12,298 nucleotides of DNA from Paraspadella gotoi (Eukaryota > Animalia > Chaetognatha), in contig CM119267.1 of the NCBI GenBank assembly GCA_051294375.1, positions 26,777,957-26,790,254 on the forward strand, in the 5' to 3' direction. Under the pieces are notes generated by a model that saw only the letters and a program-made list of their open reading frames with translations, was not told where the DNA came from and ran no database searches. A program made the position numbers and the translations under genes. Numbering within the stretch: position 1 is the stretch's first letter; each line of letters begins with the position of its first letter. Below, piece by piece: positions 1 through 12,298 of the stretch.

Positions 1-453
1 TATCTCAGTTCTCATTGGCATTATTGAGGAGTCACGTCTGGTGTTATTTGATAAGTCCTCTTCGAGGTCAATTTCGTCCACCTCGACTGAAGCTTCGATT
101 GTTGAATCGGTTATTATTTCCGTGTTTTGGGGCACGGTTGTAGCCTCTTGAATTGTTGGCTCTATTGGGTCCTCGTTTTCCTCGTTCGTTTCCGGTCTTA
201 TCTCTGGAACGGTTGGCTGTACTTGTTCGGTTCTGTCGGGGGAGTTTGGTGGGCCTGCTATTCTCACCGGTGGTTGATCGTCTTGGGACGGGGGTCCCGC
301 CTCTCTTCGTTCAGTTTGTTCTGGTGTGTTCTCTTCTCGAAGTCTCTGGTTGTTTCCGTTGGGGCCTGCATTTGTCACCTCTGAGTTTGGTGGAGCCGCT
401 TCGTCCCTATCTACTTCGGTTGGTGCCTCCAGCGGTGGTCCCGGTACTCTTCT
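1..453 (-). CDS. pol: Partial Pol: Pro/Glu/Thr-rich linker just upstream of integrase (clean copy, runs off the window; not in the ORF track)
   Basis: Stop-free 151-codon frame RRVPGPPLEAPTEVDRDEAAPPNSEV...EVDEIDLEEDLSNNTRRDSSIMPMRTEI; homologous to about 5391-5900, which lies between the OTU-like domain and integrase. Confidence 0.75.
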
Positions 454-621
454 TCATCTCGTATTAAAAAAAAAGAACAATCAAAATTTCATTCAAAGAA
501 AGAAAAAAAAAGAGGATCCCGTCCTACTCAGATACTCCGTATCGAAAATAAACGAGTCACTTGCAGGCGTTCCAGTCTTCCTAATTATATATAATAAGAC
601 GCTGAGTGAAAAACGACAAGC

Positions 622-714: not shown

Positions 715-943
715 TGACCCTTCATCGCGTCATGAATGACTATCTCCCATCAATAATGATATCCATCATTCAAAGCATGATTATCATCACATCAAATTTG
801 ACAAAATGACTATTCATTCGCCATCCAATCATTGATTATTCCATCACATCACGTTATTTCATTATCAGTCGCGATCAGATTATTGGTTATCATCGCATCA
901 ATATTGGTTATCATCGCCGATCAATATATTTGTCTGATCATCA
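715..943. repeat. Degenerate ~21-bp tandem minisatellite, about 10 units, consensus near TGRYTATCATCRCATCAATAT
   Basis: tattggttatcatcgc occurs at 881 and 902 (21-nt period); decayed units such as tgattatcatcacatcaaatt and tgactatctcccatcaataa lie upstream. Confidence 0.75.
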
Positions 944-1646
944 AAGTAGAGCCCTCGATCCTATGCTTTTTAAGAATTTTTTTAAAATACCAATTTTTTG
1001 AGCGTTTTCTCATGGCCGAAAGCAGCTGAGGCAGAGGTTCTTCGAATACTAGGACTTAGTAAGACTTAAATTTTTTGCAATAATTGAGGACAACATCCCA
1101 CAACATTTTGAGCTTCACCTACTTTTCTTACAACAGTGTACAAAATCAAAGTTCAGAGTTCAATGCTCTACATAATGAGTCTAGACCTTTCCATGCATGA
1201 AAAGTTTTTAAATCAAAAACGCAGGTATTGTAAAGTGACCCATTAGACACATAAAATAAAATCCGATTCTTTTAAGTATAGAATACCAAAGAGAGTATGG
1301 TCGCATTCTTTTTTTTCCTGTTAATTTTACCTGTGATCTGTCCTGCTAATATATGACTTTTGCTTTAGACTTTTAAAATTTTTGCCCTTCCCAGGAGCGC
1401 CAAACAGTGCCACGAGCCGGTCAAAATTCACAAATATTTTTGTAGAATTTCTCTTGAACCAAGTTTTATTATATTAATTTATAAATATAATTAGTCATTC
1501 CTGAACTAGAATTATTTGCATTGCAAGTTAGTTAATTATATAAAAAAATAGTTTTAGTCGCCTCTATTATGCTTTGAAACATTTTTTATAAACCGGAACG
1601 TACCAAAAACAAGCAACCAAATTAGTTCTAAGATACCCTTTTTACC

Positions 1647-2022
1647 GTTTCGCTATTTTTTCGTGACGTTTAAATTATCACGAAGGAAATAGACACAAAC
1701 GAACAAAATGTTTATTTACTTATTTACAATCGATAGCCACATGTAATAAAATAAGATGATGTACGAAAATTGAATATCAACCCATTCGGCGCGAGAGGCA
1801 GCTTCGCTTATGAAAAATAGTAAAGTCCTTCGTCCTACTCCGCCGGCCATGAAACATTCCTCTTATGATCTAGCCACTCTCCCCTCTCTGATTCGCTATA
1901 GAGCTTTTCTTAAAACCACGATCGAATTAAACGAAGGGATGGAGAGAAGGTGGAGAGTGAGAGACGAGAAGTTCACTAATCGATCGATTAGAGTGAGCAG
2001 GCGGATCCAGTATCCGCTGACG
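1647..2022 (-). repeat. 3' LTR (~375 bp, boundaries approximate)
   Basis: Its reverse complement is colinear with 8875-9305 (shared words gcggata..atccgc, attcgatcgtgg, ttttcataag, gatattcaattt, taatttaaa, aaaatag..cgaaac); it follows the PPT and contains AATAAA. Confidence 0.85.
1711..1716 (-). promoter_or_regulatory. Putative polyadenylation signal AATAAA in the 3' LTR
   Basis: Minus strand gtaAATAAAcattttgttcgtttgtgtct with a GT/T-rich downstream tract, about 65 nt before the LTR end; not cleanly preserved in the other (noisy) LTR. Confidence 0.55.
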
Positions 2023-2024
2023 CG

Positions 2025-2041
2025 CCCACCCCGCCGCCCCC
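2025..2041 (-). promoter_or_regulatory. Polypurine tract (plus-strand primer)
   Basis: GGGGGCGGCGGGGTGGG on the minus strand immediately before the start of LTR homology. Confidence 0.7.
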
Positions 2042-2044
2042 AGA

Positions 2045-3740
2045 CGAGGGACAGTCTTAGGACTGGCACTGAGTCTCATCCGTCGTCCCGTGTGCAGCGG
2101 CCGATGCGGCCTCAACGTTCTGCTACCGACCCCCTTCCCGCTGGCGGCGGATGCAGCCAGTTGCGCCAACTGGGCAGCAGCCGCAACAGACGCAGACACG
2201 CGATCACTCTCCGATGGCACAAGTGCCCAATGAGCGGCGCCAGGTTTCACGAGCCAGTCTCCATATCTCCACTAGGGATGAGTCGCCGAAGATCCGCCCG
2301 GATGAAGCGACCAGACGGTGATCCGGCCGGTGATTTCCTCCCAGCCGTTTCATTGAAGCGCGTGGCGTTTGGCCCCGCTGACTTCGCGTGTCGATCCATT
2401 AAATGTCCCACCTCTTCGTATTATGAGATTTTCCACTATTATAGCTGACGTTGATGTTTGGCCTCCGGAGCTTGCTCCTCAGCGGGTTTCAGGTTACTTT
2501 GCTCGAACGGCGCCCGGTCGGTGTCGACAAACCTGTCGCCGCAGATTTTGGTAGTAGACAGGAGGCAGGAGAGCAAGGCGGTTTTCAAACGAGGAGTCCA
2601 TATTCACGTGGATTTGATAGATGGCCCCGTGACGATAAGCTCCGCCCCCGAAAGAGCATGGGCAGTCTTGGAAGCACCTTTCGTCTCCTCCGGAGGCAGA
2701 GCCGCTTTGTCGACATTTGGGCAGGTTACCAAGCAAGCTTCGTCCTCTAGGACGGCGGATTAAGTGTTCGCCAGCGGTCGATGACGTGTTTCCACGCCGG
2801 CCGATCGGTGAGCCTCAGAGGCCTGCCGTCCTGGCTTCGCGGCGCGCCGCTCGGTTACGCAAAGTTTTCACTGCCGCACTGCCTTTGTGAAGTTGAGTCG
2901 ATATTTTCCTGCGTTGCTTTGCCGCTACACTTCGAACCGCTTTGTTTCATGAGGGCTTCCATCACCGATGTGTCCGGTTTGCACTCCTTGAATTCTTCTT
3001 CCACGTAAAGAAGTTGGAGCCACCCGAGACGTCTCGTTCCACTTCTGATTCCCACAGCCTACTCGACAATCTTGTCTTTTTCTCGCCGTTATGAGGCGGA
3101 GAGTGACGCCGCCGTCGCTGGGTCCCGCCGCACATCGACAATACACCTCCCAATCCTTCCCGCCTGCGTCGGGGTATTAGGCTTCGGAGCAGCTCGTCAT
3201 GCATCCTCCGAAAGCAATTTGTCCCTGAGGTATGGTCTTCATCTATCCGGATCTGGCTGTGTGCTCCGGATGTCGTATATGCAATCGAAATCCGATCTTG
3301 TTTGTTTAGAATGCCTTTTGACCCGTTTTTTCTCCCCGACGAGGCAGCATCACGCGTCCGACTGCTAGCGGACGATCGTGCAGGCCATTCATAAACGTTC
3401 CGATCTTGCAATTTTGGTCTGTTCGCTTGGCGTCTCTTCCTTTCGGAAAAAACACAAAAGATCCGTTTTCTCCTTTTTTGTTATTTGTTGGATATCTTAA
3501 TGATTTTTTTTTTACTTTATTATTTGACGTCATTTACCTTGTTTGGCTTTTCTGCAGTAACTTTATCGAACGATGTGAGTCTCCTATTTTCCCTTCTGCT
3601 TCTTTCAGGCGCTCTAAGCTCGTTCGTCTTCCTGTGTTCGTTTCGAGCGTCTGCGTCTGCCCCCCTTCCTCCTCGCGAGCTACGACGAACTGCGATCGGC
3701 CGCGATTACCGGTGGTCTGAGTTGAGGAGGAACTGGTTTG
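2045..3740 (-). pseudogene. env-like type I membrane glycoprotein ORF, frameshift-ridden as assembled; ends approximate
   Basis: Lies between integrase and PPT. Frame fragments include KRVKR (furin-like, 3314-3325), FDCIYD, FGGCMTSCS, VYCRCAAG, DCRVGCG, ACLVTCP, RCFQDCPCS, sequons NET/NAT/NVS, a hydrophobic LAPLIG..CAIG..VIACL stretch and VCCGCCP (2171-2191). Confidence 0.6.
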
Positions 3741-3749
3741 TTCTCTGTC

Positions 3750-5400
3750 TGTTTCTGGCCTAAATATCTAATTTGTCTTCTCCTTATTCTTATACTTTCT
3801 CCTTTTACTTCCTCTTGTCTTTGTTTTAAGTTTCGTTTAACCCTTACCTTGAAGTTGACTTTGGCTATTGAAATTTATGAGTTTGTTTGCCTTTTGACTC
3901 TTGTAATCACGTTCGAATTGTGTATACGTTTGAAAGTATTTTACCAATTTGAGTACGTTTTCGCTTATACTTCTCTTAAGGTTCTGAAATCAGTCTGAGT
4001 CACCTGCCTTAGCTTTTGAAGGCGGTCGTCTGTGTAAGAGTGAAGCGCTTTCCGTTAATTTATTACATAATTGGTTTTTTCCCCTGCCTCGATCACTTTT
4101 TGTGTGGCCTGTTGTAATTGTTCACTCTATTTTGTGTGTGCGCGCCGCCTTTTCGAATAAGTCACGTCTCTGCGTAGTTAAACTTCGTCTCCTGTTTTGC
4201 TCTTCTTTGAGTTTCTGAAGCGGTATACCTCTTTTTGTGAGTTTCTATGTCTGATGATCTCTGCTCTACGAATTTGTTTCTTGTTGCTTCTTGTTGGTTA
4301 TCCTGCTCGCCTCTGTGCTGTACTCTGCCTAAGCATTCGTAGAATTCTTCATCTGGGGCGCCTCTATTCAGTCTTGGCCTTTCCGAATTGGAGATCGTGT
4401 CGTGAACATGTGTTGTTTTCTCATTGTTCATGGTGACGTCGACATTCAGGGTTGAGCTATAATATATTGCAGCGCCAGTTAGATCCACTTGATTCGGGTC
4501 ATCAGTTTAGGGTCTTCTTAGTGGTCCTGCCTATTCTGCTATGTCTCTTCGGGTCGGTTACTTCTTTCTTGGAGACTAGGATCCCTCTTTCTTTCCTTCT
4601 CCGCTAATGTTCTAGCACACAAAAGTCACTCTTCGCCGATATATTTTATTGCGACGTGCCCGTCGAAATTTTACCTCTAGGTTACGTTACCGTTGTTTTT
4701 CTTGTAGTAGATATGTTACTTGCATCGAGGGCTGATTACGTGTTAGTGCATCCGCCGTCTTAAGCTTTTTATTATATTGTAGGCTGATGCATGTCCAGAC
4801 TGCCACTAGGACATCGTTGTTAGCCCCCACTGGGGGTAAGGCCGCCATACCGATGCCCTAGGATTGCCCATTGGATTCGAGCTGGCTGTTGGTCTCGACG
4901 CGGTTCATTAGAATTGGCATTTCGGCAGATCTGGGATTGGCCGCGCCTTGCAACGTCGGGCGATTCGAGCACCATTTCTCCCGCAACTGACCGATATTCT
5001 AGGGTAGGCGCTATGTATTGCGCGGCTAGGTAGGAGCCTGAACATAGTCTCTTCCTGTGTGCCTAGTTTATTCGTGTTATTCTTTTTATTTACACTCCTT
5101 GAGACCTTTGTTGTGTGAGATGATATCTCTTGTTGACCGGCTTCGTTGCTGTTGAACCGGCAGTAACGCAGACGAGTCGTCCACTTGAGTTATTGTCTAG
5201 AATCCGTTCTACGTTCCGGAGGAGGAACTGCTTTGCTCCAGTGATGGTAGGCGGCAGAGTTTGTGCAAGTGATTTTTTCTCACCTTGCTTCCAAAGTTGC
5301 TTCTGACAGGCCACCCGCGCCAAGTCTTGCTTTGTATATATGTAATTCTTGGCGTCCTTGATTTCGTTGCAATCGTTCTGGCCCAGCTTTTATCATCTCG
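3750..5400 (-). pseudogene. pol: Integrase region of Pol (HHCC zinc finger, DDE core, C-terminal extension), frameshift-ridden as assembled
   Basis: Correcting small indels gives IKRIHEKLGHTGRDYVQAYLAAQYIAPTLEYRSVAGEMVLECPTCKA (about 5090-4945); GIGMAALPPVGANNDVLVAV reads directly; EVKFDGH near 4660; IAE near 4535; then KW..ALQYIIAQ. Confidence 0.75.
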
Positions 5401-5900
5401 GTTTCTCATTGGCATTGATTAGAGCGCAGTCGCGATCTTAGCTCATAATCATCCTTGTTGATAACCGCATCTTCGAGGTCAATCTCGTACCTATGCCGAG
5501 CGATACTGATGTGTTTGAATCGGTTCAATGATTTCCGTGGAGCCTGGGGTATTGTTAGGCCTCTTGCGATCGTTGTGTTCTATTTTGCGGTCCTGCTTTT
5601 TTCCTCATTTCCTCCTCTTCGTTTTCCGGTTCCATCTCCGAACTGTCTGCGTTTGTACTGTTCGATTCTGCAGACGGGAGTTTGTGGAGGCCTGCTGTTT
5701 CTCACGCGTGGTTGATTCTTGGTGGGGGGTCCCCTTCGTCTTCGTTCGTTTGTCTTGTGTGTTTTTCTTTCCTCGGGAAAACTTTTGTTTCCCGTTGTCC
5801 TGCGGTTTGTCACCTCCAGTTTGGTTGAGCCGCACCTTGTCCCTATTACCTCGGTTTGGTGCCCGTCCAAGCGGTTGGTTCCTGGGTACTTCTCTTCGGT
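5391..5900 (-). repeat. Diverged, indel-rich direct copy of 1-460 (Pol linker)
   Basis: Shared colinear words ttctcattggcatt, tcttcgaggtcaat, ttgaatcggtt, ggcctgct, tggttgat, gggggtccc, tttgtcacctc, gtccctat, ggtact. Confidence 0.9.
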
Positions 5901-6100
5901 TTCTGTTTTTGCGTGTGGTCTATGATGGATTGTTTGGCGGCCGACCATGACGCTGCGATGTCCGGCCGGGGGAGCATTGCAGTCGGCTCATTATGGGCTG
6001 GCGCCAACTGCTCTGGGTGGATTTAACCCTCGCCTGCATAGCCCCTTTCCGTCTCTATTCTGTGTTTCTAGGCCGATGTTTAATATTTCATCGTTGTGCA

Positions 6101-6125
6101 NNNNNNNNNNNNNNNNNNNNNNNNN
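6101..6125. other. Assembly gap (25 N)
   Basis: Run of 25 n. Confidence 1.
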
Positions 6126-8155
6126 CGGGGGCCATCTACTAGGTGTCTGATGGCTCTCATTCTTCTTTCGGTATCGCTGATCAGCGAAGCTTGGCCCGTG
6201 GTTGTTCTGAAGATTCTTATTTCTCTTTCCTTTCCTCCGCCGTACACCTTTTCGTACTTACAGCCGGCTTGTGCGGTGCTGTCCTCGTCTAGTATTTTAA
6301 TGCAAATACCTGTCATGTTCGCTAGTGCCTCTAGCTCTGGATGACCCAGTGACCAGTCCTTTGCACGTTTATCAGAACAATCTCTGCAAACGTCTTTTGT
6401 TTTTGGTGCGCCGTACAGCTTTTTTATGTTCGCCCTCTGGCGAGAGAAATAATTTTTCATGAATTCGAAGAATTTTGTTCGAAAGCATTTTTCGTCGATG
6501 TTTAGCGCGGTGGCTATTATTCCTAGTATCGGCGCTCCGCCTACCCTGACTTCCAGGTGTCCTGGCCACGACTCGCCTGACAACGGTTCTTCGGTGAAGC
6601 CTGGCTCGTAACTGCCGTTGATGTCGAAGCCTGCGGCTAGGAAAGGCGTGTCTAGCGGGGTGATTTGATTTTGATCAGTGAATCTGGTTAAAAAGTCCGC
6701 TGGGTTGTCGCCACTTTTTACTAAGATGATCTCTGAGGGGTGGCATTCTTGGCGGATTTCTGTTATCCAGCGTAGTACGTTCGTTGGGAGCAGCTGCTGT
6801 TTGTCGTGTTGCTGGTCCATTACTCTTTTGAAGTATTGTGAGTCTGTCACTAGACTGACTTTTCTTCCACAAATGTAACCTTTGAACTTTCTCACCATCA
6901 TGTTGAAAGCGAGTGTTTCTAGGATGTTGATGTGTTTTATTCTGTACTCTTCTGGGAATGATTTTGAGTGGAAACTGAGGGGGTATTCAGTTCCGTTAGC
7001 AGTTGCTGTGATTAAGCCCCCCATAGCGCTTGTGCTTGCGTCGGCGTAAATTTTGTACTCACCATTTTTGATTTTTGCATCGTTCAGGAAATTCAGCCCC
7101 GGCGTCGATTTGATTTCCTCTACTAGCATTTCTAAGGCTTTTCTGATCTCGTCTCTGAATTCGAAGTCTTTCCTGTCGACCAGGGTTAGCGCGTGGAGGG
7201 GCTGCGCCAGGTATGAGAATCGATGCGTGAAGCACCTGTAATAATTTAGCGACGCTAACAGCGCGCGTAGTTCTTTTTGCGTCTTGATCTCTTTCAGTCT
7301 CAGCTCCGCTTGCTCAAGCTTTTCCTTTTGGGGTTTCAGTTTGTCCTTCGAGATGCTGAAGCCTAGGATTTTGATGTCATCTTTCCTTAAGAGGACGCTT
7401 TTTGTCCACTTGAGGACCACATTCTCTTTCCTGCAGATTTCAAGGAATTCTCTCAACCTGTCTGCCATTTCTTCCGGTGACTTTGCTGTGAGGATCAGGT
7501 CGTCCACGTATATGAGGAAGCTTTTGACGTCTCTTCCTAGGTCCGCGAAGATCTCGTCGAGTATCGCTTGCAGCACATTTATGCTGTTTACGCCTCCCAT
7601 CGGGAGTTTGTTCATCTTCCAATTGTGCCCTGCGCCGGCAAAGGTGGTCACGGGTTTGCATCTGTCTGTCAGATTTACCTGATGGAAACAGGCTAGGATG
7701 TCCACTGAGCACTGGAGCTCATGTGGTTTGTATTGTTCCAAGATGGATGTTATTGTTTGCGGCTCAGTGGCGAAAGTTGATATATTTCTGTTTACCGCTG
7801 AGAGATCGCAAATGAGTCGCCATTGTTTGGCGAACGTTTCGTCATCCATTTCGTTTTGGCCTTCTTTGATGTGGTTCGGCTTCTTTATTAGGAAGGCGTT
7901 CGAATATGCCTCACCCGTCGTTCTTGAGACGACACCTGCTTGTTCGTACACTTCCAGGTACCTTTTTAGGGCGGCTTTCTTGACAGGGCCTTGATTCATG
8001 AAATCTTGGCTTGGGTAAGTGGTTGTTGTTTGAATCCAGGTCAACTTTTCTGTTAGGAAGCCTTCCTTGCAATAATCGTTAATCGTTCGCCAATACGTCT
8101 CGTATTCCCGAGCCACGTCAAGTACTTCGTCTGCCTTTTCGCTGAGGGGACGGGT
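6126..8155 (-). CDS. pol: Pol core: reverse transcriptase, RNase H and OTU-like domain (ORF track 6080..8116; the frame is open from 8155 and continues into the gap)
   Basis: RT motifs SNAFLIKK, WRLICDLSAVN, VDILACFHQV, LPMG (7595-7606), YVDD (7499-7510), ILGF, LRALLASLNYYRCF. Ty3-type RNase H IYADAS (7034-7051), INILETLA, LVTDS, NPADFLTR with all four acidic residues. Confidence 0.95.
6179..6559 (-). other. OTU-like (cysteine deubiquitinase fold) domain lacking catalytic Cys and His
   Basis: EVRVGGAPILGIIATAL at the GDGNCLFRA position, LGHPELEALANMTGICIKIL matching WGGxxELxALS..I.I, and VYGGGKEREIRIFRTTTGQASLI at the YG...I.L.Y...HY position. Recognised by eye, no HMM run. Confidence 0.65.
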
Positions 8156-8834
8156 CTATTTCCTGAACGGCTTTCAGGAGAGCTTTCGCGGCCTCTTTCA
8201 TCATGCTTTTGTCTCCTTCTGCTCCTGGCTTTGCTGCTTGTTCGATCTCTTCCTTCGATGCGGGGGTGTCTCTAATCGCTTGTCGGGGCGTGCGGATGTG
8301 ACTGTTGTCTACGACGCTCTTTTTTCTAATACTGCCGTGTGTCCCGCAACGCTTGTTATTTTTTTGGTCTCTGTGTGGGAAAGTCCTCACGGGTCTGCCT
8401 GCGCAGTGCGGCTTCAGTCCTAGCTCTCTGGCCGCGTTCTCCGCGATGATTATTCTGGCTGATCCCCATGTGCCCGGTTTTCCTGGGAGTTCGACTCCTT
8501 CTTTCAGGTCGTTTCCCGTTACCGTAACTGCTGTCTTTCCGTCTGCTGATTCCATCAGCCATTTGGAATCGGCCAGCGATTTCCAATATGTGCGTGCCGC
8601 TCTGACCTTGGCGTTCCCGGTGCCATTTGCTTCTGCGAATAATGGAATCTCTGTTCTGTCGTCTATGTATTGCCTGGCCAGCCATCTGGCGGCTCTTAGG
8701 GCGTTCTGCTTGCTTTTGAACAGGTGGGTTACCGGTTTTCCATTCATGTGGGCTACCTGCGTTCCGTCTTTATCATTCGGCGTTATCACCCACATCTCTT
8801 CGCTGGGCCCGGGGTCGGTCGTCGCCGTGCCTAG
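8118..8834 (-). CDS. pol: Pol segment upstream of RT: protease C-terminus (LGT), candidate second inactive retropepsin-like domain, and linker; open to the gap
   Basis: Frame is open from 8834 (LGTATTDPGPSEEMWVIT...). HMNGKPVTHLFKSKQ parallels INGxPxxxLxDTGA and IIIAENAARELGL parallels ILGxDxLxxLG. Overlaps the RT frame at +1. Confidence 0.8.
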   Translation of the reverse strand, partial: LGTATTDPGPSEEMWVITPNDKDGTQVAHMNGKPVTHLFKSKQNALRAARWLARQYIDDRTEIPLFAEANGTGNAKVRAARTYWKSLADSKWLMESADGKTAVTVTGNDLKEGVELPGKPGTWGSARIIIAENAARELGLKPHCAGRPVRTFPHRDQKNNKRCGTHGSIRKKSVVDNSHIRTPRQAIRDTPASKEEIEQAAKPGAEGDKSMMKEAAKALLKAVQEIDPSPQRKGRRST

Positions 8835-8835
8835 T

Positions 8836-8860
8836 NNNNNNNNNNNNNNNNNNNNNNNNN
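8836..8860. other. Assembly gap (25 N)
   Basis: Run of 25 n. Confidence 1.
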
Positions 8861-8874
8861 AAAAAAGTAGAGAG

Positions 8875-9305
8875 ATATGCGGATATGGGAATCCGCTCCA
8901 CGCGTCTATTTGTCGATTCGATTGTGACTCTGCGTTCTCTCATCTGCACCGCCGCTCCCTAGCCTGGTTTATTCGATCGTGGATTTTATTAGGCTCTTAG
9001 CGAAGTTCAGAGGGCGGAGAGTGGGAGCTTTAGGGTCATAGGGAAATTGTGCTTTCAGTGGGCCGGGAGGGAGTAAAGGAGGCGAAGGAGATCTGTTATA
9101 GTTTTCATAAGGCAGAAGCTGGGCCCTCGGCCCGGGAAGTGGTTGGATATTCAATTTCTAAAACGATCAATTAGTATTTATGTTCCACATCTAGTCCTTA
9201 TACGATTATGGTAAACGGAAGTAAGATAACTAGGCAATTTTGTTCCGGTTATACTATTTCATGCGTGAATAATTTAAAACGTCCATCGCGAAAATAGGCG
9301 AAACA
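8875..9305 (+). repeat. 5' LTR (noisy copy, ends ...gcgaaaCA; start approximate)
   Basis: Colinear with the reverse complement of 1647-2022; homology stops at a CA dinucleotide followed by gTGG. Confidence 0.85.
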
Positions 9306-9306
9306 G

Positions 9307-9324
9307 TGGCGAAGTGGTAGTAAG
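9307..9324 (+). promoter_or_regulatory. tRNA primer-binding site (possibly tRNA-Ser type)
   Basis: TGGCGAAGTGGTAG begins 1 nt after the LTR-terminal CA; TGG complements tRNA CCA; resembles Ser-type TGGCG(C/T)AGTCGG(T/C)AGG with errors. Confidence 0.65.
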
Positions 9325-9520
9325 CGACGGAATTCGAAAAGAAGAAAACAAGCTGATTAACTCTAACGCGACGCGAAGGACAAAAGATAAAAACACCGGA
9401 CTTATCAGACCTACGCGGAATAATAAAAAAAAAAGAAAGGCAAAAGAAAACCATTTGCCGGGCGCCGCGCTCACACAACAAAATTAGAGCAAAAGCTAAA
9501 TCCCGGTCCATTTTTAGGAC

Positions 9521-11910
9521 ATGGCGAAACTGCTAAGGCATTGGTGAGAAGGGGGCTGTGCAAAGAGACGCAATTACCGCCACTACAACCCTCCGCGCCA
9601 ACGCGGAGAGAAGACGTCGAGGCCACGCAAGGTTTGGTGGGGGCCTAGCTAGACAGACGGACGGGATGATCGTCTATCACGACGGCAGAACCGAACCCTG
9701 CCAATCAATGAAGACCTTGCGGCGGGCTCGACAAGATTAAGCTGGTTTGACGTACGAAAGATAGCAACCGCCGCCAACGGACATTGGACAGAGAATAGCA
9801 AACGACGCACTCCTAATCCTGGACGAAGAGCCTGAGAAGGTCGCGGAAGGAAAGAAAGGCAACATGGGAAGCCGCATTTACGGAAATATTGGCCTTGATC
9901 AACGACAACAAGGTTGAGTTCCGCCCGCGCCGCGGCGGAATCAGCGCCAGGCAGCCGCCGAAACAAGAGCTGCTCGCCCGGGAAATAAGAATGGCCGACC
10001 TCGCACAAGCAGATGAGAGGTGAGGCCACAGACGCCAAGGGAAGAAGGCCCGGACGCCTACGCGCCGGAGACCGCCGCAGCGAGCACGTCACAACGGCGG
10101 AAAGGGCAAGACAACAGGCCCGCGCTCGATCTCAGCAAACCCGCTCTCACGCGTGCCGATCAAGATGGACAGCGACGAGAGGAAGAGAAGCGCGATGAGT
10201 TCCTGAGGGGCATTCTAACAGGAACTCTAAAAACGTGCGTACTTCGAGGAGAAAAGCCGTGAACGAGCAACTACAGGCCGTCCTCGAGCACGTGACGAAG
10301 AGGCAAATTGGTACGTCGACCCAATCGACGCAGCCTATGGAAAGCCTCGAGGCGATGTGCAAAAGAGTCATCGTCACAGCAGCAGAAATAGCCGAGAAGA
10401 GTAGGTGTGAAAGTGGACGCCAAAGGAACACTGTTCCGAATATGACTCCCACTAGTAAACTCAATCTACAAAAAGTTCGACTGCGCGTCGCGCCGCGAAG
10501 AACGTGAACGCGGTCTCACGCCAGCTCGCCCGCCTACTAACTGAAGCGCATGGAACCCGTACGCCCGGCGCATCTCAAGGGAGGTACTGAAGTTCCAGAA
10601 ATCTCATTCGACACGGGGAAGGCGTCGAGAGCTAGGAAAAGAAATGCGAGTGGAATCCTACGCTGTGGCTCGAAACTGACGGATATACAAATCGAAGGCA
10701 CGTCGCTCGCCTCTTCATAAATCCGTGAAGGAGAACGACGCGCAAATCCTCACGGACTCACTCCTGAAGAAGGGCCTAAGTGCGACAAAGAACCCGGCAA
10801 GAAAGCGCGAACGTCCCTATAACCAGGGACCAATGATGCAAGAAGGCAAACAACACGCGTGAGCTTATGGGAGAAGCTCACAAAAAGCATGTCAGCGATC
10901 GCAAGAGGGCCGTCGAAGCGAAGAAAGACGACGGCAAGTGGAGAGTCGCCAGCCAGGACGCCAGAGTCACGCCCAGAATGGCGCGACAGGACGCGAAGGG
11001 GAGTGACAGGCGCTGCAGGGCAGACAGGCCCGCACAGACAAGATACTTTCCAGAAGGAATAGATTTTGAAATTTAGACGCAGAGACGCGATTGTAAGCCG
11101 ATGAATTAGATGATATCCAAACCACTAATAAAGCTTTCGAAAATTACAATGTGTATTATTACCGGATCCCAAAGTCAGAAAAAGGAAAACCCCCGGAGGA
11201 GGTGAAAGCGGCGAAGGCTAGCAAACGGACGCCGCTGACAGAATCAAAAATGCCGCAAAGAAATGGCATCCATCAGACGCCTAGCGGGAATTCGCCGATG
11301 TGCAAAAACGGCCATTGAGATTCAAAGGCAAAGACGCAGCAGCCTAGACTATACAAGCTGTTCGCCCGCCGCTGGGGACGTCAAAGACAGACACTTGTTA
11401 GCTGTAGCGATAGTCAAAGAATCAGAAGCCCCATGGAAAACGTTCTCCAATCAAGGACAAATTAGCACACGTCAAACGCTGGAAAGCGTGCGAAAAGCTC
11501 TGCAAGAAGGCGGCAAACCGGGAAACGCGGCAGCAAAGCGAAGCAAGCCCCCGCCCCGCGCAGCCCCGCAAGCTAAAGCGGAAAGCAAAAACTAGGCAAA
11601 AGCCAATTCCAGGCTTAGGACTTTTGTCGGAAATTCAGCGGAGTAAAGTCAAGAAAGATGATTCTAATTCCGACATACACAATCGTGGAACTAACCAAGC
11701 GAGTTTCATTACACGATGGAAACGATCAGTAAAGATCGAACGATATATGTGCCATGAGCGGAGACACTACAATGGCCCGTTCACAAAGGAAGAATCCAGA
11801 AGAGAACAAATGCCCGCCGTCGGTTACCCGATCGACCGCCAGAGGCGCCCGTCCAACAGGAAAAACAAAAAGGCCCGAAACCGAGGGATGATACAGGTAA
11901 GAGGCTTTTA
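9521..11910 (+). pseudogene. gag: gag-like ORF, fragmented by indels as assembled
   Basis: Starts at gacATGG about 200 nt after the PBS; A/purine-rich coding-like fragments (KRDEFLRGILTGTL, AVNEQLQAVLEHV, LLAVAIVKESEAPW); C-x4-H (CHERRH, 11750-11767) just before the protease. Assignment is mostly positional. Confidence 0.6.
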
Positions 11911-11920
11911 GACACGCAGG

Positions 11921-12187
11921 AAACAACTATATCCGGCAGTAATAAACGGGGCACCAGCCAGCTGCCTACACGACACAGGGCCTCCATAAACACAATACCA
12001 AGGAGGTTGTAGACGAGGTGTCGCTAGCAAACAAAATTTATAGTGGAAGCCCACTAAGAGTAACGAACAGGAGAACGGGCACGATCACCATACTAGAGAA
12101 AGACTGAACTGAGAGTAATGTTTCAAAAACTGGATTCTAGACACAGTATTTTTCGTCTCGCCAGACGCCGAAGACAGAGACGTGATA
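11921..12187 (+). pseudogene. pol: Retropepsin aspartic protease (DTG), noisy copy
   Basis: PAVINGAPASCLHDTG reads directly (DTG at 11972-11980); after indel correction ASINTIPR...LRVTTGNGTITILEKTELRVMFKNWILDTVFFVSPDAEDRDVI. Confidence 0.85.
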
Positions 12188-12298
12188 TTCCTGTCGTTAC
12201 TCTTAGTGGGTTTCCACTATAAATCTTGCTTGCTAGCGACCATTCGTCTACAAACCTCCTCGGTATTGTGTTTATGGAGGCCCCTGTGTCGTGTAGGC
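12188..12298 (-). CDS. pol: Partial retropepsin aspartic protease, clean copy entering from beyond the window
   Basis: Uninterrupted frame LHDTGASINTIPRRFVDEWSLASKIYSGNPLRVTTG (DTG at 12282-12290); inverted repeat of 11964-12072. Confidence 0.9.

What the first reader, a model, noticed from the sequence alone, without database searches (positions are those of the whole stretch)
1647..12298. Env-bearing gypsy-like retroelement whose Pol appears to carry two inactive protease-fold modules
Seen: LTR pair, PBS, PPT, DTG protease, RT, RNase H and integrase motifs. Known: ordinary Ty3/gypsy Pol is PR-RT-RH-INT, optionally with a chromodomain. Inferred: this element reads PR - pseudo-PR - RT (loop insertion) - RH - pseudo-OTU - disordered linker - INT, plus a large gag and a Cys-rich env-like gene, about 10 kb in total. 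I know of no described LTR lineage with this combination, but cannot run a search. A possibly infectious element with a ubiquitin-interacting decoy would parallel RNA viruses that encode OTU domains. Substitutions between duplicated parts suggest several family members exist.
Basis: partly seen in the sequence, partly recalled or inferred. Interest (0 to 1): 0.85.

Follow-up and report, generated by a model that had tools for sequence, protein, structure and literature searches.

The report
Retrotransposon Pol with inactive OTU-like domain
A multi-copy Ty3/gypsy-type jumping gene carries, inside its enzyme polyprotein, a conserved extra domain that likely has the shape of a ubiquitin-removing enzyme but appears to lack the cutting residues, so it likely works by binding; the proposed second dead protease and envelope gene could not be confirmed.

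Summary
The element is real: one ~10.5-kb Ty3/gypsy-type LTR retrotransposon. Its 5'LTR-gag-protease block is flipped by assembly; contigs from two studies join it back to pol. RT and RNase H pass Pfam cut-offs; protease and integrase score above shuffles.

The ~135-aa domain after RNase H is likely an OTU fold. OTU is its only Pfam hit (E 0.065-0.11, below cut-off), its top ESM Atlas hits (0.92) and a colinear profile match (E 0.02). It has Pro and Gln where OTUs have Cys and His, is under purifying selection (20 of 26 listed changes synonymous) and recurs in two relatives. No structural confirmation was obtained.

The 'pseudo-protease' before RT is coding and constrained, but no test supports that fold. 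'Env' is unproven: 1.35 kb of likely coding, indel-ridden sequence with no family match.

The RT belongs to an unnamed divergent clade. OTU domains are known in Ginger1 and Helitron transposons; my paper searches found none in an LTR Pol. The scan had not noted this element, though it noted an OTU fold in a DIRS element. New variant of a known kind; interest 0.5.

The parts
8878..9305 (+). 5' LTR (in the block that the assembly inverted), TG...CA ends
9307..9318 (+). primer-binding-site-like run starting TGG one base after the LTR; tRNA not identified
   Evidence: no exact match among the errantivirus PBS entries searched
9500..11880 (+). large gag-like coding region, broken by many single-base indels that look like read errors; no family match
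   Evidence: coding z 8.7; contigs with 9 substitutions and 25 gaps in 454 bases; no Pfam hit in three frames
11880..12186 (+). aspartic protease with DTG at 11972-11980
   Evidence: joined to 8835(-) by contigs in 2 of 4 runs
12135..12298 (-). second, partial copy of the protease N-terminus in pol orientation (fold-back arm)
   Evidence: 134 identities, 20 mismatches, 22 gaps to 11964-12129; best protease-profile hit, E 0.0023
   Evidence: 5 of 5 listed substitutions synonymous; protease and dUTPase-like readings unsupported; DUF2188 E 0.013, below cut-off
7352..7990 (-). reverse transcriptase, YVDD at 7510, long loop starting at 7894
   Evidence: RVT_1 E 7.7e-17
6692..7060 (-). RNase H, four acidic motifs present
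   Evidence: RT_RNaseH E 5.6e-12
6164..6565 (-). likely OTU-fold domain lacking catalytic Cys (Pro, codon at about 6530) and His (Gln, about 6192); same open frame as RT-RH
   Evidence: selection:
5230..6100 (-). long acidic, disorder-prone linker; N gap at 6101-6125 on its upstream side
   Evidence: cleaner copy at 2-465 has 78% disorder-promoting residues and 23% D+E
3881..5224 (-). integrase (zinc finger, core, GPY/F-type C-terminus), indel-rich copy
2050..3400 (-). 3' region in the env position; likely coding, identity unknown
   Evidence: 35 stops against 52+-5 expected, coding z 1.7 (2.7 for the 5' half; 2.1 for the opposite strand); no Pfam hit; no hit from 201 held proteins
2020..2043 (-). 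G-rich polypurine-tract-like run
   Evidence: 17 of 26 purines
1647..2019 (-). 3' LTR
   Evidence: 389 identities, 47 mismatches, 107 gaps to 5395-5909; one contig joins 455 to 6038 in 1 of 4 runs

Best explanation
This is a multi-copy Ty3/gypsy-type LTR retrotransposon whose Pol carries, right after RNase H, a conserved domain that is likely a captured OTU deubiquitinase fold, predicted to be catalytically dead and likely kept as a binding module. Shown: LTRs, protease, RT, RNase H, integrase, the order after re-orienting the flipped block, purifying selection on the domain, and its presence in two relatives at 33-37% identity. From general knowledge of the family: it would replicate by tRNA-primed reverse transcription in a Gag particle and integrate through its integrase. 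Inferred: the domain stays on the RT-RNase H product, spaced from integrase by the acidic linker, and binds rather than cleaves. My single most likely ligand is ubiquitin or a ubiquitin-like tag, which would shield Pol or the particle from ubiquitin-directed destruction (about 0.3 alone). The domain before RT is a separate constrained module of unknown fold, and the 3' region is an unidentified extra reading frame.
For: OTU is the only Pfam family hit among 24,736 for the window domain (E 0.065-0.11) and the best of three hits for the homologous stretch of relative P0122 (E 0.053). ESM Atlas: best hits 0.92, 171-176 of 256 features shared, the top two clusters carry OTU on 19-20% of members, 10 of the 10 best hits with a family share it. 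Against 13 viral OTU domains: colinear 83-column hhalign match, E 0.02, above 100 of 100 column shuffles though only narrowly (19.06 against 18.79); HMM score beaten by 3 of 1000 shuffles. That register puts Pro on the Cys in the window and in P0179, Leu or Ser in P0122, and Gln on the His in the window. Selection: 20 of 26 listed substitutions synonymous against 0.28 expected (P 3e-7); 23 of 40 if the indel patch 6363-6386 is kept. One open 676-aa frame holds RT, RH and the domain. Precedents: OTU in Ginger1 and Helitrons (PMC2836005, PMC11417382, passages); repeated loss of the Cys in OTUD4 homologues (PMC4654579, abstract).
Against: Every OTU score is weak and all rest on sequence. Pfam gives 13.5-14.5 bits against a cut-off of 23.3. 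hhalign probability is 2.3%. Shuffled proteins reach 0.9 in the Atlas 4-10 times in 100. The single-sequence model failed (pLDDT 36) and PDB sequence searches found no OTU. P0122 has a Cys two residues before the canonical site and ends in HHF, so relatives may not all be dead. The substitution rows are the 40 best supported of 135, not a random sample. No binding was tested. The linker-integrase-3' part rests on indel-rich sequence with thin contig cover (one run has none at 4511-4920), and no contig spans the element.
Confidence: 0.65

Rival explanations
1. The domain is OTU-derived but has nothing to do with ubiquitin any more; it is a structural or nucleic-acid-binding 'bridge' domain on RT-RNase H, like the mini and pseudo-RNase H domains of errantiviruses.
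For: It sits exactly in the RNase H-integrase bridge, where varied small folds occur (PMC13524379, section 7). In fly OTUD4 homologues, features needed for ubiquitin binding or cleavage were lost along with the Cys (PMC4654579, abstract). It differs from my best reading only in the ligand.
Against: The sister clade has a long acidic bridge and no such domain (0 of 4), so RT-RH of this kind does not need it; transposons capture ubiquitin-pathway proteases repeatedly.
Confidence: 0.3
2. The domain is not an OTU fold; the resemblance is a chance match of an alpha/beta bridge domain.
For: All scores below cut-off; no structural match; catalytic residues absent.
Against: Pfam, the Atlas and a separately built viral profile all point to the same family, in two proteins only about a third identical, with colinear motifs from end to end.
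Confidence: 0.2
3. One reading: Pol has a protease followed by a dead second protease that pairs with or regulates it, and the 3' region is a fusogenic envelope, so the element is infectious.
For: The pre-RT domain has the right size and place, is constrained, and shows an NG.PV..L stretch, an ANG and a G.D by eye. The 3' region has the env position, few stops and a hydrophobic, Cys-ending stretch near its end. Env-bearing gypsy elements are widespread in animals (PMC13524379, abstract).
Confidence: 0.12
4. The architecture is an assembly chimera of unrelated elements.
For: Two N gaps, an inverted block, a fold-back arm, no clear target-site duplication; thin cover at 4511-5740.
Against: Independent contigs join protease to the pre-RT domain; RT, RH and the OTU-like domain share one frame and are bridged by contigs (for example 6393-6815, 18 substitutions, no gap); relatives P0122 and P0179 hold RH plus the domain in one protein; matching LTRs bound the whole.
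Confidence: 0.06

Closest known systems
Ty3/gypsy LTR retrotransposons (Metaviridae); Ty3 RT, PDB 4OL8 and 7Q5B
   Same: LTRs, PBS, PPT, order PR-RT-RH-INT; best PDB sequence matches of RT-RH are 4OL8 and the Ty3-G Gag-Pol 7Q5B (E 1.5e-21 and 4.5e-21).
   Different: At most about 32% identical to any long Pol found; 24-aa RT loop; OTU-like domain and a linker of about 300 aa between RH and INT.
Errantiviruses of metazoans (Chary and Hayashi, PMC13524379) and Oikopleura Tor elements (PMC4402516)
   Same: Gypsy Pol with an extra domain in the RNase H-integrase bridge and a third region before the 3' LTR.
   Different: Their bridge domains are RNase H-like, 'mini' or 'pseudo' folds; 'OTU' occurs 0 times in the main text. 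No F- or gB-type env could be shown here. No Tor sequence was available for comparison.
Ginger1 transposases and Helitron/Helentron proteins with OTU domains (PMC2836005, PMC11417382, PMC6431247)
   Same: A transposon protein that has captured an OTU domain; Ginger1's transposase is gypsy-integrase-like.
   Different: Those are DNA transposons; in Ginger1 the OTU lies C-terminal to the integrase. Here it lies between RH and INT of a retrotransposon and lacks Cys and His.
Catalytically inactive OTU proteins (Drosophila Otu and CG3251, OTUD4 homologues; PMC4654579)
   Same: OTU fold kept after loss of the catalytic Cys.
   Different: Cellular proteins with Ser at the site; here Pro, and the His is gone too.
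Burro giant gypsy elements of planarians (PMC6431247)
   Same: Gypsy polyprotein with ubiquitin-related cargo (MATH, SUMO-like) and an extra domain between PR and RT.
   Different: 25-30 kb, env inside the polyprotein, no OTU named for it in the passages read.
Unnamed metagenome Pols P0090, P0125, P0155, P0170
   Same: Sister group in the RT-RH tree (100/99); RT loop of 27-34 aa; long bridge after RH (480-640 aa, 18-23% D+E in the three measured).
   Different: No OTU-like domain in the bridge.

Membership tests
Ty3/gypsy (Metaviridae) | Paired LTRs with PBS and PPT | tested here: met
   direct orientation only after undoing the inverted block; primer tRNA not identified
Ty3/gypsy (Metaviridae) | Pol order PR-RT-RH-INT | tested here: met
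Ty3/gypsy (Metaviridae) | RT/RH of the gypsy type | tested here: met
   RVT_1, RT_RNaseH, RT_RNaseH_2 above cut-off; Ty3 among best PDB hits
Ty3/gypsy (Metaviridae) | Integrase with HHCC and D,D35E residues | tested here: inconclusive
   whole-domain z 5.5-6.4, core alone z 0.4-2.4; indels hide single residues
Ty3/gypsy (Metaviridae) | Target-site duplication | tested here: inconclusive
   flanks do not match exactly; error-rich sequence, and the LTRs may come from different copies
Ty3/gypsy (Metaviridae) | Placement in a named lineage (GyDB/Repbase references, Tor, Cer, Mag) | not testable with these tools
   trees held mostly unnamed hits
Errantivirus / env-bearing gypsy | Third frame homologous to F-type or gB-type fusogen | tested here: inconclusive
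   no Pfam hit, but Pfam also missed the integrase in the same indel-rich frames
Errantivirus / env-bearing gypsy | Signal peptide and C-terminal transmembrane anchor | tested here: inconclusive
   best hydrophobic path matched by 12 of 60 shuffles; signal peptide not assessed
OTU (PF02338) | Profile score above the curated cut-off | tested here: not met
   13.5-14.2 bits (window) and 14.5 (P0122) against 23.3
OTU (PF02338) | Colinear Cys-loop helix, conserved Arg, WG helix and His strand | tested here: met
   alignment to 13 viral OTUs; weak scores
OTU (PF02338) | Catalytic Cys and His | tested here: not met
   Pro and Gln in the window; Pro in P0179; Leu or Ser with a nearby Cys in P0122
OTU (PF02338) | Papain-like OTU fold in 3D | tested here: inconclusive
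   single-sequence model pLDDT 36
Retropepsin (for the pre-RT domain) | D[ST]G motif or profile similarity with the motif masked | tested here: not met
   no motif; z 0.8 masked and unmasked
Retropepsin (for the pre-RT domain) | Acid-protease beta-barrel fold | tested here: inconclusive

The most novel reading that the evidence does not exclude
An undescribed, deeply branching gypsy clade has captured a deubiquitinase, disarmed it and kept it on Pol as a ubiquitin-binding shield: a pseudo-enzyme counter-defence in a retrotransposon, parallel to the active OTUs of RNA viruses, implying that the host restricts retrotransposons through ubiquitin. It may also carry an envelope of an unrecognised class.
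Probability: 0.25. Interest if true: 0.8.

Novelty: new variant of a known kind. Interest (0 to 1): 0.5.

Why it matters
Cargo domains show which host pathways a mobile element has to deal with. OTU and Ulp1 proteases are known on DNA transposons, and their role there is still a guess (PMC2836005). A conserved OTU-like domain without its catalytic residues, inside an LTR Pol, would separate binding from cleavage: if it binds ubiquitin, the selected function is recognition or shielding. That can be tested with one 135-residue domain. The RT clade itself has no named member among my hits.

Tried and rejected
No whole genome is held, so copy number, flanks and host were not determined; the host may be an animal or a protist. 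No RNA holder was listed: no evidence on expression either way.

Searches that found no relative: long Pol proteins closer than 27%; the OTU-like piece (0 of 49 candidates) and the pre-RT piece (0 of 169) at similar length only; viral contigs; metagenome contigs (1 distant RT of 252 pattern matches). The Atlas gave no usable hit for the pre-RT domain. Both AlphaFold jobs were single-sequence and poor; Foldseek and VIA listed no OTU and no retropepsin, which excludes neither.

An integrase reading of the 3' region looked good with a 10-sequence core profile (0 of 100 shuffles at two settings, 2 of 100 at a third). It fell to z 0.9-2.3 and shifted position with 28- and 102-sequence profiles, so I rejected it as over-fitting by the frameshift-tolerant aligner.

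A dUTPase-like reading of the pre-RT domain was suggested by a 29-aa match to the protease/next-domain junction of P0164 (45%). Profiles of 3 and 56 such domains did not recognise it. An OTU-like look in the N-terminus of P0155 got no support. DARPin and designed-repeat PDB hits are composition artefacts. No tRNA gene or Rfam family in the window. No complex prediction was run.
Full report
Anatomy and assembly. The window holds two N gaps (6101-6125, 8836-8860). Left of 8835 the element reads on the minus strand; from 8861 to 12186 it reads on the plus strand. The LTRs align at 8879-9334(+) and 2017-1620(-): 337 of 377 columns identical, 100 gap positions, score 356 against at most 141 in 100 shuffles. 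A TGG run follows the plus-strand LTR and a G-rich tract precedes the minus-strand one. Nine public runs of one organism, from 3 studies, hold 0.23-0.36 of the pol words. Of the 4 runs laid on the window, 2 (from two studies) have a contig joining 12186 to 8835 on opposite strands. So the LTR-gag-protease block is flipped by assembly, and the element is about 10.5 kb in the usual order. The plus-strand block carries read-type indels: contigs show 9 substitutions and 25 gaps over 9490-9943, but 18 substitutions and no gap over 6393-6815. The stretches 2050-6100 look the same by their broken frames. No contig spans the element, cover is thin at 4511-5740, and no target-site duplication is clear. 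Many diverged copies exist: 155 contigs of one run lie on 535 bases (46, 44, 40 and 25 in four identity classes).

Core enzymes. One open frame of 676 aa (8155-6128) holds RT (RVT_1, E 7.7e-17) and RNase H (E 5.6e-12) with intact motifs. The best PDB matches are 4OL8 and Ty3-G Gag-Pol, followed by foamy-virus-type Pol and others. The protease scores 70.8 with a frameshift-tolerant profile against at most 44.3 in 40 shuffles. The integrase lies at 5224-3881: z 6.4 and 5.8 with a 28-sequence profile, against -0.5 to 0.1 for two control regions, and 5.5 with 102 sequences. The signal comes mostly from the C-terminal half; the core alone gives z 0.4-2.4.

Lineage. The nearest long Pols are at most about 32% identical. 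Thirteen short metagenome proteins are closer, 38-74%; the ten looked up carry no informative name. In a 39-row ML tree (9 rows of interest, 10 chosen and 20 random from the 136 rows), the window and four fragments form a group (100/99), sister to P0090, P0125, P0155 and P0170 (100/99). These share an RT loop of 24-34 aa, against a mode of 9-14. Long branches may help to pull them together, and the tree has no named lineage references.

The domain after RNase H. OTU is its only Pfam hit (E 0.11, 0.081, 0.065 for three cuts; 13.5-14.2 bits against a cut-off of 23.3). The homologous part of P0122 (38% identical over 186 aa including the RH end) also has OTU as best of three weak hits (E 0.053). 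The ESM Atlas gives top hits of 0.92; the first two clusters carry OTU on 19-20% of members, and 10 of the 10 best hits with a family share it. I fetched 33 viral loci with an OTU motif; 20 gave full-length domains and 13 remained after removing near-copies. Against them the window domain is beaten by 3 of 1000 shuffles, and the three-sequence alignment matches over 83 colinear columns, E 0.02, probability 2.3%, narrowly above 100 of 100 shuffles. In that register Pro replaces Cys and Gln replaces His. P0179 also has Pro. P0122 has Leu or Ser with a Cys just upstream and ends in HHF, so it may differ. The single-sequence model failed (pLDDT 36) and PDB sequence searches found no OTU. I put the OTU fold at about 0.8. 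Of the 40 best-supported of 135 substitutions, 23 are synonymous; leaving out the 14 rows of the indel patch at 6363-6386, 20 of 26 are, against 0.28 expected. The four sister-clade Pols lack the domain, so it was likely gained, or kept, in the window's group only.

The domain before RT. It is coding and constrained: 5 of 5 listed substitutions are synonymous. Protease profiles of 15 and 84 sequences do not recognise it, nor does hhalign (15 of 100 shuffles as high). The model (pLDDT 50.6) matches only generic beta-sandwiches. A dUTPase-like module (my recalled label) occupies this place in many gypsy Pols: 56 segments among the held proteins; PMC5408684 (passages) reports dUTPase there in rotifer and basidiomycete elements. 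The window domain does not score against that profile either. Its fold is open.

The 3' region. About 1.8 kb separate the integrase end from the PPT. In 2060-3400 stops are depleted (35 against 52+-5), the codon signal is weak (z 1.7), Cys codons are not clearly enriched (40 against 32+-5) and the best hydrophobic path is matched by 12 of 60 shuffles. Pfam and 201 held proteins give nothing, but they also miss the integrase at this indel rate. Env is possible and unproven.

Mechanism. Replication as for Ty3/gypsy follows from established knowledge. The OTU-like domain is fused directly to RNase H and separated from integrase by about 300 acidic, disorder-prone residues, so it likely travels with RT-RH (inferred). 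With no Cys or His it is predicted not to cleave; selection says it does something. I favour binding of ubiquitin or a ubiquitin-like tag (about 0.3) narrowly alongside a ubiquitin-independent bridge role (about 0.3).

Literature. Seen: PMC2836005 (passages; OTU or Ulp1 C-terminal to Ginger1 transposases, OTU in Helitrons); PMC11417382 (passages); PMC6431247 (passages; Burro, Helentron OTU); PMC13524379 (abstract, passages, section 6 part 1 of 2, sections 7 and 8, motif searches in 7 supplementary files: 0 hits for four Pol motifs); PMC4402516 and PMC5408684 (passages); PMC4654579 (abstract); PMC5718144 (passages, nothing relevant). Searches listed no paper on an OTU domain in an LTR retrotransposon Pol, and search 117 none on a tandem protease; I saw only listings for the rest. 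Repbase, GyDB, Dfam and most subscription papers are not searchable, so absence from print is not shown. Earlier scan notes had no look-alike sequence; one unchecked note reports an OTU fold in a DIRS element and two report macrodomains on LTR polyproteins.

Verdict. A real, divergent gypsy-type family with one likely dead OTU module in Pol. Half of the headline holds; the second pseudo-protease and the envelope do not yet. New variant of a known kind, interest 0.5.

Noticed in passing
window 1-465: A cleaner copy of the RH-INT linker from another family member, 1.2 kb from the 3' LTR in the same orientation; nested or tandem copies, or a scaffolding duplicate.
   Followed up: partly
window 11964-12298: Fold-back: an inverted second copy of the protease N-terminus (134 identities, 20 mismatches, 22 gaps); likely an assembly or read artefact at the edge of the flipped block.
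   Followed up: partly
window 8120-8155: Frame change between the pre-RT region and RT inside otherwise clean sequence; one contig over 8102-8260 shows 5 gaps. Error, copy variant or programmed shift is not resolved.
   Followed up: no
window 6363-6386: A short patch in the OTU-like domain where copies differ by compensating indels; the window's version is matched exactly by a contig of one run.
   Followed up: partly
window 821-1230: A separate repeat of very high contig depth in the AT-rich flank, unrelated to the element; not identified.
   Followed up: no
window 8640-8834 (-): Weak DUF2188 match (E 0.013, 16.1 bits against 22) in the first 55 residues after the protease.
   Followed up: partly
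proteins P0090, P0125, P0155, P0170: Unnamed metagenome Pols forming a sister clade, with RT loops of 27-34 aa and long bridges after RH; P0155 and P0170 show a dUTPase-like module before RT by eye.
   Followed up: partly
window 2420-2503: Contigs in 3 of 4 runs skip or replace these 82 bases in the 3' region.
   Followed up: no
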